Origin: Pristiophorus japonicus
Lineage: Eukaryota
Assembly (NCBI RefSeq): GCF_044704955.1
Contig: NC_091999.1
Coordinates: 9,858,001 to 9,922,000, forward strand
Length of the DNA: 64,000 nt
Direction: 5' to 3'
A program made the translations under genes and the position numbers. The notes below the pieces were generated by a model. The model saw only the letters and a list, made by a program, of their open reading frames with translations. It did no database searches and was not told the DNA's origin. This document shows, one piece after another, positions 3,821 to 58,750 of this stretch. The first letter of the stretch is position 1, and each line of letters begins with the position of its first letter.

Positions 3821-3922
3821 CTGGTACTGAAGTTGCATGATTAGCCATGATCATATTGAATGTTGGTGCAGGCTCGAAGGGCCGAATGGCCTATTCCTGC
3901 ACCTATTTTCTATGTTTCAATG
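3821..3922 (+). mobile_element. Short 5'-truncated CR1 3'-end insertion (unit A only)
   Basis: GCAGGCTCGAAGGGCCGAATGGCCTA..CCTGCACCTATTTTCTATGTTTC terminus, absent at the paralogous sites ~16665 and ~27865. Confidence 0.75.
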
Positions 3923-4169: not shown

Positions 4170-4551
4170 GTCAAACTAAAATAATGTGGCAGAGGATTTA
4201 CCGAAAACCTGAACACATTAAATATTCGGTTTTCATGCAACGCGCGGGATGAATTCACAAACACAGGCAGAATATGGGAAGCGACAAGCAGGGAGTTCCT
4301 TGAACATCGATCTGTGACTTTAAGGGGAAACAGCTGATCAGAACGGGAAAGTACAGTTAAACCCGTCAGTTCATTTTGTGATCGATCTTTCTGACCGATT
4401 GGATCCTGCAGTTTATTTTCTCAGCTGCTCTTGGAAGTTGTTGGGTGACTGTTTGATCCGAGCTTCATTTGGTTTCCTCTCGGTGTGTATTTGAGCGCCT
4501 TACTGTGCGCTGCACATTGTGGCTGCATCTACCCGCGATTCCACACAAACC
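4170..4551 (+). pseudogene. Highly decayed plus-strand V relic with 23-RSS (CACATTG 4513-4519, ACACAAACC 4543-4551); paralogs ~16900-17320, ~28320-28565, ~33370-33770
   Basis: Exact 23-bp spacer. Across the copies the plus strand gives SVLIEC (~16960), QWIDQQ (~33495), TRRFIL (~28370) and GVYLSAL (~4482) in V-domain order. Confidence 0.5.
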
Positions 4552-4586
4552 TAACAGACAGGAGCTCCGACCTACTGTTCAATGCT

Positions 4587-4625
4587 CCTTAATGTACGGG
4601 GGTGAGACGGCTTTCCATCACTGTG
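4587..4625 (-). other. 23-RSS of V1
   Basis: CACAGTG + 23 bp + ACATTAAGG (degenerate nonamer) on the minus strand. Confidence 0.9.
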
Positions 4626-6061
4626 ACGCTCAGAGCGCAGTGATACACTGCAGCATCAGCCAGCTGCAGCCCGGCGAGAGTTAAACTCCTGAATTTAGTC
4701 GAGGTCTGGAGCTCTGCAGAGAAACGGGTTTTGAAACCTCCTCCTTTCTCTTCCTGTGTGCCCTCAGACCATCTCCACACAACAAACTGGGGCGCCTTCT
4801 CTGCTTTTTGCCGGTACCAATGAAAGACGGAGCGGTTTTCTGTGGTACTAGAGATACATTTTATAGTCACCGCTTCACCTTCTCTCCTCTCTACTGAAGA
4901 CTGGGACTGAGTAACAGAATCTCCGTCATTCTGACATAGAAACATAGAAACATAGAAACATAGAAAATAGGTGCAGGAGTAGGCCATTCGGCCCTTCTGG
5001 CCTGCACCGCCATTCAATGAGTCCATGGCTGAACATGCAACTTCAGTACCCCTTCCTGCTTTCTCGTCATACCCCTTGATTCTCCTAGTAGTAAGGACTA
5101 AATCTAACGCCCTTTTGAATATATTTAGTGAATTGGCCTCAACTACTTTCTGTGGTAGAGAATTCCACAGGTTCACAACTCTCTGGGTGAAGAAGTTTCT
5201 CCTCCTCTCGGTCCTAAATGACTTACCCCTTATCCTTAGACTGTGACCCCTGGTTCTGGACTTACCCAACATTGGGAACATTCTTCCTGCATCTAACCTG
5301 TCTAAACCCGTCAGAATGTTAAACGTTTCTTTGAGGTCCCCTCTCATTCTTCTGAACTCCAGTGAATACAAGCCCAGTTGATCCAGTCTTTCTTGATAGG
5401 TCAGTCCCACCATCCCGGGAATCAGTCTGGTGAACCTTCGCTGCACTCCATCAATAGCAAGAATGTCCTTCCTCAAGTTAGGAGACGAAAACTGTACACA
5501 ATACTCGAGATGTGGCCTCACCAAGGCCCTGTACAACTTTAGCAACAATTCCCTGCCCTTGTACACAAATCCCCTCGCTATGAAGGCCAACATGCCAGTT
5601 GCTTTCTTAACCGCCTGCTGTACCTGCATGCCAACCTTCAATGACTGATGTACCATGACATCCAGGTCTCGTTGCACCTCCCCTTTTCCTAATCTGTCAC
5701 CATTCAGATAATAGTCTGTCTCTCTGTTTTTACCACCAAAGTGGATAACCTCACATTTATCCACATTATTATTCATCTGCCATGCATTCTCCCACTCACC
5801 TAACCTATCCAAGTTACTCTGCAGCCTCATACCATCCTCCTCGCAGCTCACACTGCCACCCAACTTAGTGTCATCCGCAAATTTGGAGATACTACGTTTA
5901 ATCCCCTCGTCTAAATCATTAATGTACAATGTAAACAGCTGGGGCCCCAGCACAGAACCTTGCGGTACCCCACTAGTCACTGCCAGCCATTCTGAAAAGT
6001 CCCCATTTACTCCTACTCTTTGCTTCCTGTCTGACAACCAGTTCTCAATCCATGTCAGCAC
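4589..6061 (-). CDS. Open chimeric reading frame: CR1 RT C-terminal half fused in frame to the V1 domain (expression unproven)
   Basis: 490-aa ORF: GVPQGSVLGP..ISKFADD..RPHLEYC..FFTQRVVNLWNSLP, then 3'UTR/tail read-through, then the complete V domain. Confidence 0.45.
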   Translation of the reverse strand: MLTWIENWLSDRKQRVGVNGDFSEWLAVTSGVPQGSVLGPQLFTLYINDLDEGIKRSISKFADDTKLGGSVSCEEDGMRLQSNLDRLGEWENAWQMNNNVDKCEVIHFGGKNRETDYYLNGDRLGKGEVQRDLDVMVHQSLKVGMQVQQAVKKATGMLAFIARGFVYKGRELLLKLYRALVRPHLEYCVQFSSPNLRKDILAIDGVQRRFTRLIPGMVGLTYQERLDQLGLYSLEFRRMRGDLKETFNILTGLDRLDAGRMFPMLGKSRTRGHSLRIRGKSFRTERRRNFFTQRVVNLWNSLPQKVVEANSLNIFKRALDLVLTTRRIKGYDEKAGRGTEVACSAMDSLNGGAGQKGRMAYSCTYFLCFYVSMFLCQNDGDSVTQSQSSVERREGEAVTIKCISSTTENRSVFHWYRQKAEKAPQFVVWRWSEGTQEEKGGGFKTRFSAELQTSTKFRSLTLAGLQLADAAVYHCALSVTVMESRLTPVH

Positions 6062-6435
6062 ACTACCCCAATCCCATGTGCTTTAACTTTGCACATTAAT
6101 CTCTTGTCGAAAGCCTTCTGAAAGTCCAAATATACCACATCAACTGGTTCTCCGTTGTCCACTCTACTGGAAACATCCTCAAAAAATTCCAGAAGATTTG
6201 TCAAGCATGATTTCCCTTTCACAAATCCATGCTGATTTGGACCTATCATGTCATCTCTTTCCAATTTTTATTTTTATTTTTATGACCTGTAACATGTGTA
6301 GAGGAACAAGATAAGACCGAGTATTAAAGGGGCCAGGGAAATGATATTAGCATTTTAGTTTAAATACAGCATTAATCGATCATCCTTACCGACAATAAAC
6401 ACCCCAAACACAACCCAGGCGCTGAATATCTGCAT
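4626..6435 (-). pseudogene. TCR alpha/delta-type V segment V1 (family A), disrupted by a CR1 insertion at the start of the V exon
   Basis: Leader 6435-6390 MQIFSAWVVFGVFIV-G|gtaagg. Acceptor ttacag|gtca at 6287/6286. V exon 4935-4626 reads DGDSVTQSQSSVERREGEAVTIKC..FHWYRQKAEKAPQFVV..RFSAELQ..DAAVYHCALS. The normal spliced message stops within ~14 codons inside the insert. Confidence 0.92.
4936..6282 (-). mobile_element. Young 5'-truncated CR1 LINE inserted into V1
   Basis: (ATAGAAAC)n tail at 4936-4965, near-intact RT coding sequence, TGAC repeated at both junctions (4932-4935 and 6283-6286), and (TTTTTA)3 filler at the 5' junction. Confidence 0.92.
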
Positions 6436-6464: not shown

Positions 6465-6535
6465 CCTTTAAAAGCCCAATCCAGGACCAGAAGAGACGAT
6501 GTCTGGGGATTCTCAAAGCCCAACGTCACTTCCTG
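6465..6535 (-). promoter_or_regulatory. Family-A V promoter: composite ETS/CRE (CAGGAAGTGACGTTG) and TATA-like TTTTAAA; paralogs 19012-19080, 29129-29198, 34334-34403
   Basis: The motif is conserved ~90-100 bp upstream of the leader ATG in all four copies (variant in the 29.2-kb copy) and resembles the CRE-like decamer of TCR V promoters. Confidence 0.6.
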
Positions 6536-17346: not shown

Positions 17347-18981
17347 AGTTTATGTACAGGGTGAGACTGCTTTCCATCACTATGAGTCAGACAGAGCGCA
17401 CTAATACACGGCAGTGTCAGTCAGCTGCAGCCCGGCGATGGTTAAACTCGTGAATTTAGTCGATGTCTTGAGAATTGCAGAGAATTGCGTTCTGAAACCT
17501 TCTTCTTTCTTCTCCTGTGTGTCCCAAGACATTCTCCACACAACAAACTGGGGCGCCTTCTCTGCATTTTGCCGGTACCAATATAAGTTGGCTCAATATT
17601 GCCGGTACCAATATAAGTAATTTCAGGTGGCTGAAAACATCCATCCTCCCCTCTGCTGGCCGCGATCGTAGGCTGAAGCAGACTGTTTGCAATTCTGGCT
17701 ACTTCCGACCCATCTCGCAAAGCCCACCTCTAGAACATCGCCCGTCTCCACCCCCGCCTCAGCCAATTTGCTGCTGAACCCCTTACCCAGGGCTTTGTTA
17801 CCTCCAGGCTCGACTATTCCGATGTTCTCCTGGCCAGCCTTACATCCTTTTGTAAACTTGAGCTCATCCAAAACTCTGCTGCCCCATCCCCTAATTCGCA
17901 CCAAGTTGTGTTCTCCCACGACTACGATATTATATTGGCTGCTGGTCCAGTGATGCTTCAAATTCTACCGTCCTTTTGTTAAAATCCCTCCTTGGCCCCT
18001 CTCCTCTCCATCCCTTGTCACCTCCTCCAGCCCTGGAAACTTAGTTCTGCGCTCCTCATATTACGGCCTCTTGAGCATCCCCGACTTTTATTGGTGGCCG
18101 TGCCTTCAGCTGCATTGGTCCCAAGCTCCGGAATTCCCTCGCTAAACCTCTCCACCTCTCTATCCCCTCAAATCTCATCCTTGTTTCAAATCCCTCCATG
18201 GCCTCGCTAAACCTCTCCACCTCTCTATCCCCTCAAATTCTCATCCTTGTTTCAAATCCCTCCATGGCCTCGCCCCCTTCCCTATCTCTGTAATCTCTTC
18301 CAGCCCCACAACCACCCGATATGTCTGCACTCCTCTAATTCTACCCTCTTGAGCATCTCTGATTTTAATCGTTCCACCATCGTTGGCTGTGCCTTCAGCT
18401 GCCTGGGCCCCAAGCTCTGGAACTCCTTCCCTAAATCTCTTTGCCTCTCTACCTCTCTTTCCTCCTTCAAGACGCTCCTTAAAACTCTGAGAGTTGTTAC
18501 TCTGTGAAATTCTCTACCGCAGAGAGTTGTTGATGCCAGTTCATTGGATGTATTCAAGCGCGAGTTATATATGGCCCTTACGGCTAAAGGGATCAAGGAG
18601 TATGGAGAGAAAGCAGTAAAGGAGTACTGAGGTGAATGATCAGCCATGATCTTATTGAATGGTGGTGCAGGCTCGAAGGGCGGAATGGCCTACTCCTGCA
18701 CCTATTTTCTATGTTTCTATGCTATAGCCGTTTTTTGTGATATTATAGGTACATTTTATAGTCACCGCTACACCTTCACTCCTGCTCTCTGAAGACTGGG
18801 ACTGAGTAACAGAATCTGCGTCACGCTGACCTGTAACATGTGTAGAGGAACAAGATAAGACCGAGTATTAAAAAGGTGTCGGGGAAATTATATTAACCCT
18901 TTCGTTTAAACACAGCAGTATTGAATCATCCTTACCGACAATAAACACCCCAAACACAACCGAGGTCATCAATATCCGTAT
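17347..18981 (-). pseudogene. TCR alpha/delta-type V pseudogene V3 (family A), split by a retro-insertion
   Basis: Leader 18981-18936 has ATG>ATA. Exon parts are 18830-18724 and 17621-17385. YYC is mutated to Y*C. RSS is CATAGTG (17378-17384) + 22 bp + ACATAAACT. Confidence 0.88.
17622..18722 (+). mobile_element. Composite insertion: L2-type 3' fragment joined to a CR1 3' end
   Basis: L2-like FVTSRLDYS coding and GCCTTCAGCTGCCTGGGCCCCAAGCTCTGGAA 3' region (internally duplicated), then a CR1 terminus ending TTTTCTATGTTTCTATG. Confidence 0.7.
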
Positions 18982-51377: not shown

Positions 51378-54300
51378 TCAAATTAAAATTTGTTTGCCGG
51401 GCGTGATGATGCACTCCAGTCCCTCCGGTGCCCACCTCTTATGGAAGGCCGCGAGCATACTGGTGGACACCGCGTGCTCCATCTCCAAGGACACCCTGGC
51501 GCGGATGTACGCGCGGAAGAGAGGCAGGCAGTCAGGTTGAACGACCGCCCGCTGCCTGGACCGGCTGATGGCACCCTTGGCTGTGCCCAGGAACAGTCCT
51601 ATGAGGAAGCACTCGGACCTACCCGCTTCCCTCCGCACAGGGTGCCCAAAGATCAGGAGTGTGGGACTGAAGTGCAGCCAGAATTTCAGTAGCAGCCCCT
51701 TTAAATAATAAAACAGGGGCTGCAACCTCGTGCATTCGGTAAAAACATGGAACACGGACTCTTCCAGACCGCAGAAGTTGCAGGCGGCCTGGGAGCCCAT
51801 GAACCAGCTTAAAAAAGTATTGCACAGCATTGCTCCGTGCAACACCCTCCAGGCCAAGTCCCCGATAAATACTGGGAGGACTCACGCATAGAGTGCCTTC
51901 CATCGGGGACCCCCGCCTCCTCCGGACAGCAAGATGGTACGCCATGGTGTGTCCGGACGGCAGGCGAGGATGGCAAAGTTGAGAGTGTGCTGGAGCAGCC
52001 CGTACAGGAAACCCCTCTGCGCGGAACTGAAAGGCACGGAGGGGATTTCCCCGAGGCGGCTCAAGTTATGAGGCGACAGCTCCCGAGGGAGGTTCCGGGG
52101 TTTGGCGCCAATGAGGAATTCCGTCTGGACGGAGGTCAGTTCGGACGGGATCTCCCCACGTGCTTCAGCCTCCTTGATGCACCTAACGGAGTCGGGGCCC
52201 AGAGCTGTTTTTAGCGACTCGATGGCATCGGCTGCGCGGCGGACGTTGGCAGAATTTAGGTGCCGCGCCAGCGTGTCTGGCGCCATCCAGCCCGCTCCTC
52301 CGCCATCGAGCAGGTCCCTGACCCTGGTCACCTCACCAGCCACAGCCCTCTCGTCCGACCGCCACCTAAAACCTCGGTCGTGGAGGTACGGATTCCCGAG
52401 GAGCGGCTCCTGCAGGACAGCCGCCACTCCAGCCGGTGGTGAGCTGCGCTTGGTGGAGACTTTGTTCCAGACCCTGGTGAGTTCCTTGTAAAAGACAGGC
52501 AGCTCCTGGAAGGCGGTCCTGACGCCCCCCAAGCTCACAAACAGGAGCTGCGTGTCGTAGTTGAGGCCGTGCTGCTGGCGGAAGAAGTACATCGCCAGTG
52601 CACGCCACCTGGGAGGGGGCTCGACGTAAAGGTAGCTCTGCAGGGTCTGAAGACGGAAAGTCTCGAGCTGGGTGCTGACGCACACCAATGACTGACCGCC
52701 CTCCCCAAATGGGAGACTCAAGACCGCGTCAGAGACCCAGTGCTTCCTGTTGTTCCAGAAGAAGTCCACCAGCTTCTTCTGTATCTTGATGACAAACGCA
52801 GGGGGAGGGGTCAAAGTGACCAGCCGGTACCACAACATGGCGGCCACCAGCTGGTTTATGACTAGTGCTCGATCCCTGTAGGACAGCACTCGGAGCAGTC
52901 CTGTCCAGCGCCCTAGGCGAGCGGCGACCTTGGCCTCCAGCTCTTGCCAGTTCGCTGGCCAGGCTTCCTCGTCGGGGCTAAGGTAGGCTCCCAGATAGAG
53001 GAGATGGGTCGTGCTCCTGGCAAAAGGCCTGAGCTCCTCCGGCAGGGAGTCCACCCGCCACTGACCCACCAAGTGTCCGGAACATTTCTCCAAGTTGATC
53101 CTGGCGGAGGATGCGGCAGAGTAAATCTCCTGGCACTCACGCATCCTCCGCAGGTCACCGGGATCGTCTACCGTGAGGAGCACTTCATCGGCGTAAGCCG
53201 AGAGGACGACCTCCATACCCGGCCCTTGCAGAACCAGTCCCATCAAACTCGTCCACAGGAGGCGCAGGAAAGGCTCCACGCATATGGCATATAACTGGCC
53301 GGACATGGGGCATCCCTGGCGCACCCCTCTCCCAAAGCGAAGGGGCGCCATCAAGGACCCGCTAACCTTAATCAGACACTCTGCGGCGGCGTACAAAAGT
53401 CGGATCCGGGTGACGAAATGCATCCCGAACCCAAAAGCGCGCAGAGTTCCGAACAGATAGTCGTGATCCACCCTGTCGAACGCCTTCTCTTGGTCGAGAG
53501 ATAGGAAGGCGACAGACAGACAAGCCTCCTGGGAATGATGGATGAGGTCCCGGACCAGATGGATGTTATCGTGGATTGTCCGGCCCTGGACCGTGTAGGA
53601 CTGGTCGGGGTGGATCATGTGGTCCATCACTGCGCCAAGACGAGCAGATATCGCCCTGGCGAAGATTTTGTAGTCTGTGCTGAGGAGGGAGACCGGGCGC
53701 CAGTTCTTAAGGAGGCGGAGATCGCCCTGCTTAGGCAGCAGGACGATGACTGCCCTGCGCCAAGAGAGGGGCATCTCCGCGGTCGCCAGACTTTCCCCCA
53801 GGAACCGCGCATAGTCGCCCCCCAGGACGTCCCGAACACGCTGTGGAACTCCACGGTCAGCCCGTCCAGCCCCGGGGCTTTTCCCCTCGAGAGCCGGTCG
53901 AGGGCGCCGGTCAGCTCCGCCAGGTTTAGCGGAGCTTCCAGATTTTCGGTGCCCTCCTGGCCGACTTTCGGCAGGTCCTCCCACAAAACTCTACGCGCTT
54001 CCTCGCTGGACGGCTCCGGAGAGAACAGAGCCCCGTAATATTCACGGACCCTGTTGTTGATACCCTCCGGATCCGAGACGAGAGAGCCGTCGTCGGCCAG
54101 CAGCGTCAAGAGCTGCTTACGGACACTCTGCCTTTTTTCCAGTGATAGAAGAAGGGGGAGCCGCAGTCCAGATCCCGCAGGAACCGGATCCGCGACCTCA
54201 CGAACACGCCTCGGGACCCGACGAGCTGCAGATCCTTCAGCGCGGCCTTCTTCACTTCATACACCATCCGCAGGGCCGGGTCCTCGACGACTTGACCGAG

Positions 54301-55267
54301 ACGGGACTCCAGGTCGAGCACCTCCTTTTCTAGGCGCCCGACCCTGGCCGCCCGCCTCTTGGTCGACCCCCTCGCGTACTCTTGACAGAAGACGCGGACG
54401 TGAGCCTTGCCCACGTCCCACCATAGCCTCAAGGAGGGGAAGCCCCCCCTGCTTCCTTCTCCAGTCGGCCCAGAAACGACGGAACGAGTCCTGGAACCGC
54501 ACGTCCTCCAGCAGCTGGTTGTTAAATTGCCAATACGCGGACCACGTCCTCGCGCGGAGCGAAGTGAGCTCCGCCCACACCAGGTGGTGGTTCGAACACG
54601 GCACCAGTCGCATGGAGGCCGCCGGGACGCAGGAAACGTATGCCCGAGACACGTAAAGGCGGTCGACTCTGGACCGTCCTACTCCAGGCCTCACCCAAGT
54701 AAAGGCGCTGGAATCGGGATGGAGATTTCGCCAGACGTCCACCCAGTCGAAGGACCCGACCAGGTCCCTCAACTTCTCCATCGCCGTCATGCTCTGCGGG
54801 GCACCGGAGCAGTCCCTCGCCTCGAGGGTGCAGTTAAAATCCCCCCGAGGACAATGCAGTCGCCGACATCGACGGAGCTAAGAAGAGCGGACACTTCTTC
54901 GAAGAAGCGCGTTTGCTGCGGACCGGGCTGAGGGGCGTACACGTTCACGAGATGGAGCAGCACGTCCTCCAGGCGAACCGTGACGTGCAGCAAGCTGCCT
55001 GGCACGGGCTCCTTGACCCCCCAAGATCTCTGGCTGAAAATGCGGGGCCAACAAGATGGCCACCCTACAAGAAGTGGTAGTGAGGTGGCTCATGCGGACC
55101 TCTCCTTGCCATTGCAGGAGCCACGTGGCTTCGTCTCCCGGAACATTGTGGGTTTCTTGCAGGAAGCACACCGCATATTTCCCCTCCTGCAGGAGGGAAA
55201 AATTGTTAAATCTACAGCGTGCCTCTCTGCCGCCGTTGATGTTGAGGCTGGCTATGGTTATCTTCAT
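51378..55267 (-). pseudogene. Tx1 ORF2 (AP endonuclease-reverse transcriptase-zinc finger), frameshifted
   Basis: MKITIASLNING, FLQETH, LKNWRPVSLLSTDYKIFA, LDQEKAFDRV, GVRQGCPMSG, YADE (YADD variant) and CNFCG..HVFTEC. Confidence 0.88.
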
Positions 55268-55292
55268 GACAAAAGCATAGTTCAACCTCTAC

Positions 55293-57404
55293 CTAACCTA
55301 TTGTGGGGTGGGGGGGAGTGGAGTCGTTTGTTGACCTCCACTCCTTCAGCAGCCCAGCGAGGAACGTTTTGAGCCGGCGCAGCTCAAGGCCTTGCGCCTT
55401 TGATAAGGGCCCGCCCGCGGCCATGATTTTAGCGGCGGCGCGGACGGACACAATGAGCAGCCCCGGCTCGGACCATCTTTCCAGGGCCAGATGGGCTCGG
55501 TTGCGGCGACCCTGGCTCTGGACCAAAAAGACCCGGAGTTCCTTTGCAGGAATGAGGGGGGACTCAGCGGCGGGCACGAGGAGATCCAGGGCCTCATTGG
55601 CGATGGACTCGAGATCTTCTCCCTCGTACCCCACCGAGTCCCCATCCCCCTCCGGGAGGTCGCCGCCAGCAGCTGGCCTGTCGACCGCACGAGGTACGGC
55701 AAACGGCCCGGCCGCTCCATCCGACCCTGGCTCTGCCCCGATCCCACCCCCAGGATCGTCAGCAGAGGACTCCCCACTGGGCTCTTTTAAAAGTGGTGCT
55801 GGGTCAGGAAGCGACAGCAGAAGGTGTTCCTCCTCCACCCCAGGAACCGGGGAACACGGAGAGACCTGGCCAAAGTAATGTTCCAGGTCCTCCAAGTACC
55901 CCAGCTCCAAAGTAGGGGGCGAGGGTTGTTGTTCTTCCCCTTTCCCGCCGCCACCACCCGGCCCAGCGTGTACAGAATCATTAAAATTGTTCATATCTTC
56001 CATTTCTTCCGGGCCGAGCGACACGCAGGGGAAGTTGTTTAATAGCTGGCCGGGCTCAGGTTCGGCCTTTTCGGCCGCGCCCGCCTCAGTCCCTGGGACG
56101 CTCGACCCGGCGGCTACGCATTCCTACGCTGGGCCCATGCCCCCCACGACAGGCAGATCTTCCACGCCATCCCCGGGAGGCAGATTATGGGCAGCCTCGA
56201 CTGTCTCACCCTCCCCGGGGACAGATTCCTCCTGCCTACGGCGCAGTTTGGGGGCGCAGGTGGGGGATGCGGGACACGCGGCGGGCACCGACTCCTCCGC
56301 AGAGGGATGTTGTTCCCCCTCCGCCTCATTGTAGCGGCGCCTCCTTTTGTTCCTGGGGGGGGGCGCGGAGGCAGGGAGACCTCCATGTCTGCTGAGGCCT
56401 CCCGCTCCACTCCTCCATTTTTCTTATCTTGCCCACGCCCGAACCCCTCTGCGGTATTGGTCAAGGGCTCGGGCACGGGCTCTGAGCAACCCGCGCTCGC
56501 CGGTGACGGGGTTGGGCTGAGCGCGGTAAACAAATTTTCTGGCGCACTGAGGGGACGCGCCTCGAGATGTTTCGCCTTCCTCTGTGCCTTCATTCCGATC
56601 GGACACTCTACCTCCCCCCCCGCCGGAGGCCGTGAAAACAAAGGCCCCCGACGATGCCCGCGCACCTACGGCTCCCGGCACTCGGATGCTACTAGGGGGA
56701 GGGGTGGCGGCGGCGCTAGCCTTGGCCGCCTTCAGTGGTTTGGCGGCCTTGGAGGCGGGGCAGTTCTTGCGAACGTGTCCCACCTCCCTACAGGCATGGC
56801 ACCACACGCCGTCCAACGTCCAGAAGACGCGGTAGGCAGTCCCCTCGTGCACCACATTAAAATTGCCCTCTGTCGTCTCCTCCCGCGCGAGACGGACAAA
56901 GAGCTGGTGGCGGAAGGAGAACACATGGCTCAGGCTGTTCTCCCTGAGGCCGAGCGGTATGGGGTTGATCCCCGACCTTACCTCCCCAAGTTGGTGTAGG
57001 TGAGGGAGGAGGAGCTCAGCGGGAACAAAGGGCGGGACTTTTGAAAGGATGACCCTCTGCGCGGTGGCCTCGAGAGGGTCCACCAGCAGGAACGTCCCGC
57101 CCACCGCGAGCCCCTTTTCAAGGGCCAGGGACACCGCCCGCTCCGATCCCAGGAAGAATACAGCCTTCCCAGACATCTTGGAGGCTGCGACAATGGCCGA
57201 GGGGCCGACTACCCCAGCCATCGCCCGCACGCACTCCTCGATGCTCATTGTGGGGTGAGTGTAGCTTTTGACCCCGTGTTTTTTTGTTATGAGTCTGAAT
57301 GGTGGCAGGGCAGCAGGAGGCGCAGGAGGCGCCGTGGATGTGGACGCCGCCTGCTCGTGCGTCTTAGCTGGCCCTGCCACCGGCGTGGATGGGGTCGCCA
57401 TCAC
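55293..57404 (-). pseudogene. Tx1 ORF1 (gag-like nucleic-acid-binding protein), frameshifted
   Basis: IVAASKMSGKAVFFL, VILSKVPPFVP and CHACREVGHVRKNC motifs, followed by a Pro/acidic tail, spread over 3 frames. Confidence 0.82.
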
Positions 57405-58750
57405 GGGGTCCCTTTAAGGGCTACACCCACCCCAAATTCACAGGCATTAATGATCTTTATTTGGCCTCGTTGATGTTTTGAGCAGGGGGAGCTCTTAATG
57501 GGGATCACCTCTCCCCTAGTTAACGAATGGGGAGGGGCCTTACTCCCTCTGCTCAGTTGTCTTAATTAACTTTAATTAAGGAGGAAAGGGGCTCTCAGAG
57601 AGAGAGGGGAGAGACAGACAGAGTGACAGAGAGAGAGAGAGAGATGGGGTGGGAAAGAGGGAAGCTGCGAGGGCAGGTCTCCCCTCACAGCGATGGGTGG
57701 GCGTCTTTCTGGGGTGCACTCCCCAGATGATGGAAAAAATCAAGACACAGTCCTTGTAAATGGTCTTCGGGTGGGGAGAGAAGATTTCTTCACCTGGGGC
57801 AGCTGGAGCCACCTAGGCACACACTCCCAACGAAGTTAAATAGGGTGATTAGTACTACTTCAGCTAGGTAGCTCCAGCTATCCCAGGCTAGGAAATGGGG
57901 GTGCTTCAGTGGTGTGTGGGGCCTAGCTGTAAGCAAGACCCCCCACACACACTTCCACACACACACACCCGCCGCGATGTTCCGGCCCTCGAAAGGTCTT
58001 CTTTCCTCCCCCCACCGATACAACAAAGTCTTTCGGGGAATGCACCAAAACACACCCACCTGTCGAAGATTGCAGAAATGGCTCTCCCTCCTTCCACACT
58101 GGATGGTGTTTTCTCAGGTTGTTCTTTTCCCCCTCTCTCCAACTCTCTGTAGTAGTAATAAGTTGATACATTTTCTGCTCTCCTCCTCTCCCTCTGGACG
58201 TTGCATTGTAGTAAGTCAGCCCCCTCCTCCTCTTCCTGGGCTGGCCTCAGGTTTCACTCTAGGCCTTCCAGGCAGGAGCAAAGCAGGGAGTTCCTTCTCT
58301 CACAGCAGCACAGCTCCAACTGAATAGGCCACGCCTCCAAACTCCACCATTGGTCCACAGATCCCTGAAAGTAGCAGGCCAGGTGGATAAGGTGGTTAAG
58401 AATGCATACGGCATAATTGCTTCTTTTTGATGACGCATAGAATGTAAGCAGTGAGGTGATGCTTAAATTGTATAATACTTTGGTTAGACCACAGCTGGAT
58501 TACTGCGTGCAGTTCGGGTTGCGGTATTATAGGAAGGACGTGATTGCATTAAAGAGGGTGCAGAGGACATTTGCAAGATACTGACTGAAATGGAGACTCT
58601 TAGTTAGGAGGACAGATTGGATAGGCTGGCTTTGTTCTCATTGGAATAGAGGAGGTTGCGAGGGCATCCTCATTGAAGTGTACAAAATATTGAGGGCTTG
58701 GACATAGTGGAGAGTAAGGACCTATTTCCATTGGTGGAGCGGTATATTAC

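What the first reader, a model, noticed from the sequence alone, without database searches (positions are those of the whole stretch)
4589..6061. In-frame LINE reverse transcriptase-TCR V domain fusion that keeps its RSS
Seen: a CR1 inserted 4 nt into the V1 exon. Its ORF2 is stop-free for ~340 codons. Where related CR1 ends in this window stop (GEKARKLY* at ~58840; GEKAVKEY* at ~18630), this copy is 1 nt shorter (GCA GGA AGG GGT ACT GAA). It therefore reads through the 3'UTR and microsatellite tail directly into a complete V domain (both Cys and the Trp), followed by a CACAGTG-23 RSS, all downstream of an intact V promoter and leader. Inference: V(D)J joining could create an RT-V-J-C open frame, usable only from an internal ATG (for example EEDGM) because the normally spliced leader stops after ~14 codons. 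Chance is a serious alternative, since a young insertion plus one frameshift is enough to produce this.
Basis: partly seen in the sequence, partly recalled or inferred. Interest (0 to 1): 0.7.

Follow-up and report, generated by a model that had tools for sequence, protein, structure and literature searches.

The report
T-cell receptor gene broken by LINE
A shortened jumping gene (a CR1 LINE) has landed at the start of one of fifteen near-identical shark T-cell-receptor V genes and likely knocked it out; the long reading frame joining the two is in the assembled sequence but is most likely an accident, since it has no natural start, holds only half of the enzyme's core and is decaying without sign of selection.

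Summary
The 497-codon frame (4589-6082, minus strand) is in the assembly: the back half of a CR1 RT runs through the element's 3' UTR into a complete TCR-alpha/delta V domain, upstream of J and C-alpha in the same orientation. The fusion reading fails on several counts. The frame holds only RVT_1 positions 100-199 of 205. The normally spliced leader stops 13 codons into the insertion, and the first in-frame ATG lies past FADD, so its product has no RT match. The RT part decays neutrally (16 non-synonymous to 3 synonymous private changes). The RSS is only half kept: perfect heptamer, nonamer ACATTAAGG against ACATAAACT or better in all 9 open-frame paralogs. Five of 14 paralogs are also broken. 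Against pure chance: two changes private to this copy are needed (a lost G, 149 vs 82,661 copies; TAG to CAG in the UTR), a route with odds near 1e-5, although read-through fusions as a class run near 0.3% per insertion. Reads could not test the lost G. One contig from another sample matches a paralog; none matches this V. Verdict: retroelement-disrupted V pseudogene with a chance open frame.

The parts
6523..6530 (-). CRE-like promoter motif (AGTGACGT), shared with paralogs
   Evidence: its role is recalled, not tested
6390..6435 (-). V1 leader exon, MQIFSAWVVFGVFIV plus 1 nt, GT donor
6287..6389 (-). leader-V intron with its normal acceptor (the most pyrimidine-rich of 139 AG sites scanned)
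6283..6286 (-). first 4 nt of the V exon, repeated after the insertion (likely target-site duplication)
6265..6282 (-). 18 extra A-rich nt at the 5' junction, not matching family copies
4936..6264 (-). 5'-truncated CR1 copy in sense orientation: 3' part of ORF2, 3' UTR, microsatellite tail; ~94-95% alike to family copies
6246..6248 (-). TGA that ends the normally spliced leader after 28 aa
6058..6267 (-). RT piece in another frame (RVT_1 36-81, with LDFQKAFD), cut off from the long frame by a 12-nt deletion (~6107) and a 1-nt deletion (6069)
   Evidence: weak hits, E 0.02-0.06
4589..6082 (-). 497-codon open frame: RT back half, 41-codon UTR/tail linker, V domain; ends at a TAA inside the nonamer
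5870..5881 (-). FADD motif, upstream of the first in-frame ATG
5828..5830 (-). first in-frame ATG (EEDGM); its product has no RVT_1 match
5049..5053 (-). G run one base shorter than in sister copies; bypasses the ORF2 stop
4997..4999 (-). CAG where sister copies have TAG in the read-through frame: second enabling change
4626..4935 (-). V exon of V1 (TCR alpha/delta-type), open, Cys/Trp/Cys kept, 12 private amino-acid changes at conserved codons
4587..4625 (-). 23-spacer RSS: heptamer CACAGTG (4625-4619), nonamer ACATTAAGG (4595-4587), decayed against paralogs

Best explanation
A 5'-truncated CR1 copy sits four bases into the V exon of a TCR-alpha/delta V segment and puts a stop 13 codons after the spliced leader, so the segment is likely a pseudogene, and the open RT-V frame is likely a by-product of neutral decay. 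Shown: the insertion, the early stop, the two enabling changes, the half RT, the decayed nonamer. Inferred: insertion by target-primed reverse transcription; later loss of one G and of a UTR TAG by ordinary mutation; reduced but perhaps not zero recombination; any V1-J-C message removed by nonsense-mediated decay.
For: Normal splice gives a 28-aa peptide; the new acceptor beside the tail is out of frame. RT part: 28 N / 8 S against the family majority (omega 0.96); private changes 16 N / 3 S, omega<=0.3 rejected at P=0.004. The same copy has a 12-nt and a 1-nt deletion upstream. Frames open for >=300 codons are common in this young family: 8 of 30 short-form loci. The ORF2 frame is open through UTR and tail in 29 of 29 copies, and 3,127 of 85,788 copies have a changed stop codon, so fusion frames as a class run near 0.3% per sense insertion. 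Nonamer decayed. 5 of 14 paralogs are broken, one by another CR1-containing insertion in its V exon. V1 has 12 N / 1 S private changes against 0-8 N in the 9 open paralogs. A contig from another sample matches paralog C23:9791582 at 14 of 14 diagnostic letters and not V1. No RT-V protein among 365 candidates of 273-870 aa.
Against: The route taken is rare: both changes are private to this copy (sisters L035 and L032 have five G and TAG; 0 of 40 other CAG copies show the short site; 0 of 30 other short-form copies combine an open UTR with a long RT frame), odds roughly 5e-6 to 4e-5 per insertion. Omega 0.5 is not rejected (P=0.056). Leader, promoter motif, heptamer and both Cys are intact. Much of V1's divergence (6% private) likely predates the insertion (1.4-4%), so it is not all decay. 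The expression negative is weak: three contig sets of unknown tissue and kind, only one V contig seen in them.
Confidence: 0.75

Rival explanations
1. The missing G is an assembly error in a G run (or the tail length is wrong), so V1 is a pseudogene with no fusion frame at all.
For: The change shortens five G to four, and the same copy has a second G-run loss at 6069 that 0 of 14 covering copies share. One-base errors in homopolymers are the usual long-read error (recalled).
Against: 149 genome-wide copies carry the short form, some nested among copies with T at that site, where it is not a run contraction. This copy is among the most diverged sampled (83 of 84), so real indels are expected. 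A read-derived contig matches the assembly exactly over 4400-4719, but that is outside the insertion.
Confidence: 0.15
2. V1 is partly rescued by splicing: the leader donor skips the insertion and joins a weak acceptor inside the V exon (first exon base 4920, 4893 or 4890), giving a V shortened at its N-terminus; the RT frame is irrelevant.
For: These three acceptors are in frame with the leader; 4893 and 4890 have 14 of 20 pyrimidines upstream. V frame, leader and heptamer are intact.
Against: The normal acceptor and the new one at 4930, both out of frame for V, come first and score as well or better. The rescued forms lose the end of the signal peptide or strand A (inferred). Nonamer decayed.
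Confidence: 0.06
3. A working chimeric chain: after V1-J joining, a cryptic acceptor inside the CR1 (first base 5910 or 5577, in frame with the leader) or the internal ATG gives leader-RT fragment-linker-V-J-C-alpha, and selection fixed the two enabling changes.
For: Two private changes and the right phase coincide; two TAG acceptors give 455- and 344-aa open products from the leader; J and C-alpha are placed for deletional joining.
Against: No purifying selection on the RT part; 39 of 139 AG sites are in frame, as chance gives, and these two have only 11-12 of 20 pyrimidines; neither change helps without the other (inferred); no catalytic triad in one frame; nonamer decayed; no such protein found.
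Confidence: 0.04

Closest known systems
Retroelement-disrupted V pseudogenes that keep an RSS, e.g. human VH 4-20.1P (PMC2212390, table row seen in passages: Alu insertion, CACAGTG-23-ACACAAACC)
   Same: V segment in a tandem array, broken by a retroelement, RSS heptamer and spacer kept
   Different: Here the element is a CR1 at the exon start in sense orientation and its RT frame happens to run into the V frame; the leader is intact
Rearranging TCR pseudogenes/ORFs such as TRBV23-1 (10.1101/2025.09.30.679533, abstract; PMC5059964, passages: BV23-1 expressed in 20 of 20 people, 8 TRAV pseudogenes not expressed)
   Same: A non-functional V could still be joined and transcribed
   Different: No rearrangement or transcript of V1 was seen; its nonamer is decayed
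Lyosin, an L1 ORF1p-MYL4 fusion isoform (PMC12129022, abstract and outline)
   Same: LINE coding sequence in frame with a host exon
   Different: Lyosin is ORF1-derived, spliced in, ancient, under purifying selection and expressed; this is a young ORF2 fragment, neutral, with no shown transcript
NAR-TCR of sharks (recalled; no call)
   Same: A TCR V domain carrying an extra N-terminal part
   Different: NAR-TCR's extra part is a rearranging Ig-type V domain spliced to a leaderless V-delta; here it would be a LINE fragment

Membership tests
CR1-type LINE insertion | RT-type ORF2 3' end, 3' UTR and microsatellite tail shared with a dispersed family | tested here: met
   (82,661 exact matches of the family site); the label CR1 is recalled, no repeat library was searched
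CR1-type LINE insertion | 5' truncation with short or no target duplication | tested here: met
   4-nt repeat, 18 extra nt at the 5' end, empty site seen in paralogs
Functional TCR alpha/delta V segment | leader splices in frame to V | tested here: not met
   stop after 28 aa
Functional TCR alpha/delta V segment | V domain with both Cys and the Trp, open frame | tested here: met
Functional TCR alpha/delta V segment | usable 23-RSS | tested here: inconclusive
   heptamer perfect, nonamer 5/9; PMC2193808 passages: nonamers tolerate change, yet two changes in a non-consensus nonamer moved efficiency from 3.5% to <0.004%
Functional TCR alpha/delta V segment | found rearranged and expressed | tested here: inconclusive
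   0 V1 contigs in 3 runs of other samples, 1 paralog contig; tissue and kind unknown
Domesticated LINE fusion gene (Lyosin-like) | purifying selection on the LINE-derived part | tested here: not met
Domesticated LINE fusion gene (Lyosin-like) | conserved at the orthologous site across species | not testable with these tools
   no related genomes held
Domesticated LINE fusion gene (Lyosin-like) | fusion transcript | not tested
   no reads were laid across the junction
Active reverse transcriptase | whole RVT_1 core with all three catalytic Asp in one frame | tested here: not met
   which Asp residues are catalytic is recalled

The most novel reading that the evidence does not exclude
A rearrangeable shark TCR-alpha V that, after V-J joining and cryptic splicing into the CR1, yields a leader-bearing chain with 230-340 LINE-derived residues in front of the V domain: a retrotransposon fragment entering the somatically diversified receptor repertoire (or a source of LINE-derived peptides in the T cells that use this V).
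Probability: 0.04. Interest if true: 0.75.

Novelty: new member of a known kind. Interest (0 to 1): 0.16.

Why it matters
As read here it is an ordinary case of birth and death in a V array. The useful by-product is general: in this very abundant shark CR1 family the ORF2 frame stays open through the 3' UTR and tail (29 of 29), and about 3.6% of copies have lost the stop, so long RT-host open frames will turn up by chance and are no evidence of domestication. If the chimera were expressed, it would be a LINE-derived domain placed in an antigen receptor by V(D)J joining, which three paper searches (listings only) did not show in print.

Tried and rejected
An exact consensus RSS search found 0 matches in the window; RSSs were read from paralog alignments instead. 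The first frequency of the short site, 4 of 29, came from best hits to this copy and was replaced by whole-genome counts (149 vs 82,661). Inheritance of either change from a source element: not supported by trees of 48 and 58 rows (most forks weak). The codon table and the frame columns had offset errors and were redone. '0 of 14 open' was dropped as a measure, since 8 of the 14 segments are 1022 nt, one short of the majority, which may be an alignment edge effect. Germline hypermutation of V1: 7 of 18 private V changes are adjacent against 0-2 in paralogs, and tandem changes mark shark SHM (PMC5931798, passages), but the CR1 changes show no such spectrum; left as a note. The PDB search with the RT part found nothing at E<=0.001. 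Runs X5 and X17 laid no contig, which proves nothing; the small shares in 20 of 24 listed runs were not interpreted. No fold or complex job was run. Three look-ups of earlier scan notes gave nothing on this feature. Supplements were not read.

Full report
Setting. The window lies on contig C23 of a 5.9-Gb genome. The nearest named protein to this V family is P0002, called 'T cell receptor alpha chain' of Pristiophorus japonicus by its source, so this is a shark TCR alpha/delta locus. V1 is one of 15 segments of one family in a tandem array over about 120 kb (16 hits, one gene split). A C-alpha exon matching P0002 at 95% lies at C23:9722462-9722797 and 8 J-like segments at 9727.6-9736.8 kb, most with a recognisable 12-spacer signal, all on V1's strand. 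Deletional V1-J joining is therefore possible in principle.

The observation. The frame 4589-6082 (-) is open for 497 codons and hits RVT_1 and V-set. Paralogs show the empty site. The insertion is 6282-4936: 18 extra A-rich bases, then a 5'-truncated CR1 copy about 94-95% alike to family members; the first 4 bases of the V exon are repeated after it. The name CR1 is recalled from the motifs and tail; no repeat library was searched. Leader, donor and a TGACGT promoter motif match the paralogs.

What opens the frame. Against the majority of 29 fetched family copies this copy has a 12-nt deletion (~6107), a 1-nt deletion (6069) and a 1-nt deletion (~5052). The last bypasses the ORF2 stop. Genome-wide exact counts are 149 for the short site and 82,661 for the full site, 20,764 of them with five G. 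The new frame has a TAG 15 codons on in 20 of the 29 copies; this copy has CAG, a form seen 50 times against 39,100 for TAG plus CAG in that context. In two trees the copy groups with five-G, TAG copies (L035, L032), and none of 40 other CAG copies shows the short site (7 of the 40 unreadable there). Both changes are thus private. The fair measure is the class of event, though. The ORF2 frame itself is open through UTR and tail in 29 of 29 copies, 3,127 of 85,788 copies have a changed stop codon (some to another stop), and 8 of 30 short-form loci are open for 300 codons or more. With a one-in-three phase this gives about 0.3% per sense insertion into an exon. The contig holds over a hundred V-like matches, and this copy is among the most diverged sampled (83 of 84; 103 candidates, 19 too short), so it has had more chances than most. 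The number of trials is an inference.

Could it be used? The normally spliced message reads MQIFSAWVVFGVFIVGHKNKNKNWKEMT*. After a V-J join such a stop lies far ahead of the C-region introns; clearance of such TCR transcripts depends on a downstream intron in mice (PMC3135592, abstract), so decay is inferred. The pyrimidine-rich tail creates a new acceptor (first base 4930), which gives a stop at codon 17. Of 139 AG sites 39 are in frame with V, as chance gives; the better ones are 4893 and 4890 inside V and 5577 and 5910 inside the CR1. The first in-frame ATG (5830, codon 85) lies past FADD (codon 68), behind 15 ATGs on the spliced message, and its product has V-set hits but no RVT_1 hit at E<=0.1. 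The whole frame covers only RVT_1 100-199 of 205; positions 36-81, with the LDFQKAFD motif that aligns weakly to R2 proteins, are in another frame. No product could be an active RT (which Asp residues are catalytic is recalled).

Selection. Against the family majority the RT part has 28 non-synonymous and 8 synonymous changes (omega 0.96; the 29 others 0.23-0.77, which include inherited differences). Private changes are 16 to 3; omega<=0.3 is rejected (P=0.004), 0.5 is not (P=0.056), neutrality fits. Absence of a stop is expected in 15-38% of simulations. V1 has 12 non-synonymous and 1 synonymous private changes at conserved codons, against 0-8 non-synonymous in the 9 open paralogs and 7-12 in 3 broken ones (two fragmentary paralogs left out). 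Part of this likely predates the insertion, as V1's exon and flanks are 5-9% private.

The RSS. Heptamer and 23-nt spacer are intact. The nonamer is ACATTAAGG; all 9 open-frame paralogs keep AAAC at positions 5-8 (8 ACATAAACT, 2 of them at a 22-nt spacer; 1 ACAAAAACG). One contig of DNA run X1 matches 4400-4719 without a difference (X1 may be the assembly's own sample). Nonamers tolerate more change than heptamers, but two changes can cut efficiency a thousandfold (PMC2193808, passages), and the nonamer scales efficiency overall (PMC12205992, passages). Reduced use is likely; none is not shown.

Neighbours and expression. Five of the 14 paralogs are broken (stops, frameshifts, a lost 5' half, and a 1.1-kb insertion with an antisense CR1 end in the V exon at window 17586-18725). 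In three runs from other samples of the same organism, of unknown kind and tissue, one contig was laid; it matches paralog C23:9791582 at 14 of 14 diagnostic letters and V1 at none. This is a weak negative. A protein search with the linker and V part among proteins of 273-870 aa gave 2 hits of 365 candidates, neither with an RT domain. The junction, the tail length and the lost G were not tested in reads, so an assembly error stays open.

Comparison and verdict. The nearest known thing is a V pseudogene with a retroelement insertion and a kept RSS, such as human VH 4-20.1P (PMC2212390, table row). It fails the tests met by the domesticated L1 fusion Lyosin (PMC12129022, abstract): no purifying selection, no shown transcript. 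Three paper searches (listings only) showed no LINE RT-V fusion. Best reading: pseudogene with a chance open frame (0.75); assembly error (0.15); splice rescue of V (0.06); working chimera (0.04). Interest 0.16.

Noticed in passing
window 17586-18725 (V paralog 18830-17349, minus strand): A second V of the same family is split by a ~1.1-kb insertion that ends in an antisense CR1 3' end; a ~20-bp stretch of the V exon is doubled at the downstream junction, and its leader ATG reads ATA.
   Followed up: partly
G000 genome-wide, CR1 family of this copy: The ORF2 frame stays open through the whole 3' UTR and tail in 29 of 29 copies, and 3.6% of 85,788 copies have a changed stop codon, so thousands of copies could read on into flanking DNA.
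   Followed up: partly
window 4320-4935: V1 carries more adjacent (tandem) private substitutions than its paralogs (7 of 18 in the V exon, plus a cluster at the nonamer); tandem changes mark shark somatic hypermutation, but the numbers are small.
   Followed up: partly
L004 (G000:C23:9791582) and L002 (G000:C23:9773327): Two open-frame paralogs have a 22-nt RSS spacer; the first is the V matched by P0002 and by the X6 contig, so a 22-nt spacer may be in use.
   Followed up: partly
G000:C23:9.9-11.7 Mb; window 40148, 46652, 63309 (+) and 9419, 32687 (-): V segments of several families lie in both orientations over ~2 Mb upstream of one C-alpha, so many would have to join by inversion.
   Followed up: no
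window ~51400-57500 (minus strand): A GC-rich ~6-kb element with endonuclease-, RT- and zinc-knuckle-like frames, by eye a near full-length Tx1/L1-type retrotransposon broken by frameshifts (label recalled).
   Followed up: no
G000:C23:23-66 Mb, C3770, C3921: At least 15 dispersed ~120-nt matches to the 3' part of this V exon (79-80% alike, near-identical scores) far from the locus: likely a V fragment carried in a repeat or duplication.
   Followed up: no
L093-L097 (G000:C7:227-238 Mb): Five almost identical CR1 copies within 10 Mb of one contig, likely a segmental duplication.
   Followed up: no
window 3823-3922 (+): A 100-nt CR1 3'-UTR fragment lies 700 nt downstream of V1's RSS, inverted relative to the insertion (88% alike).
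   Followed up: no
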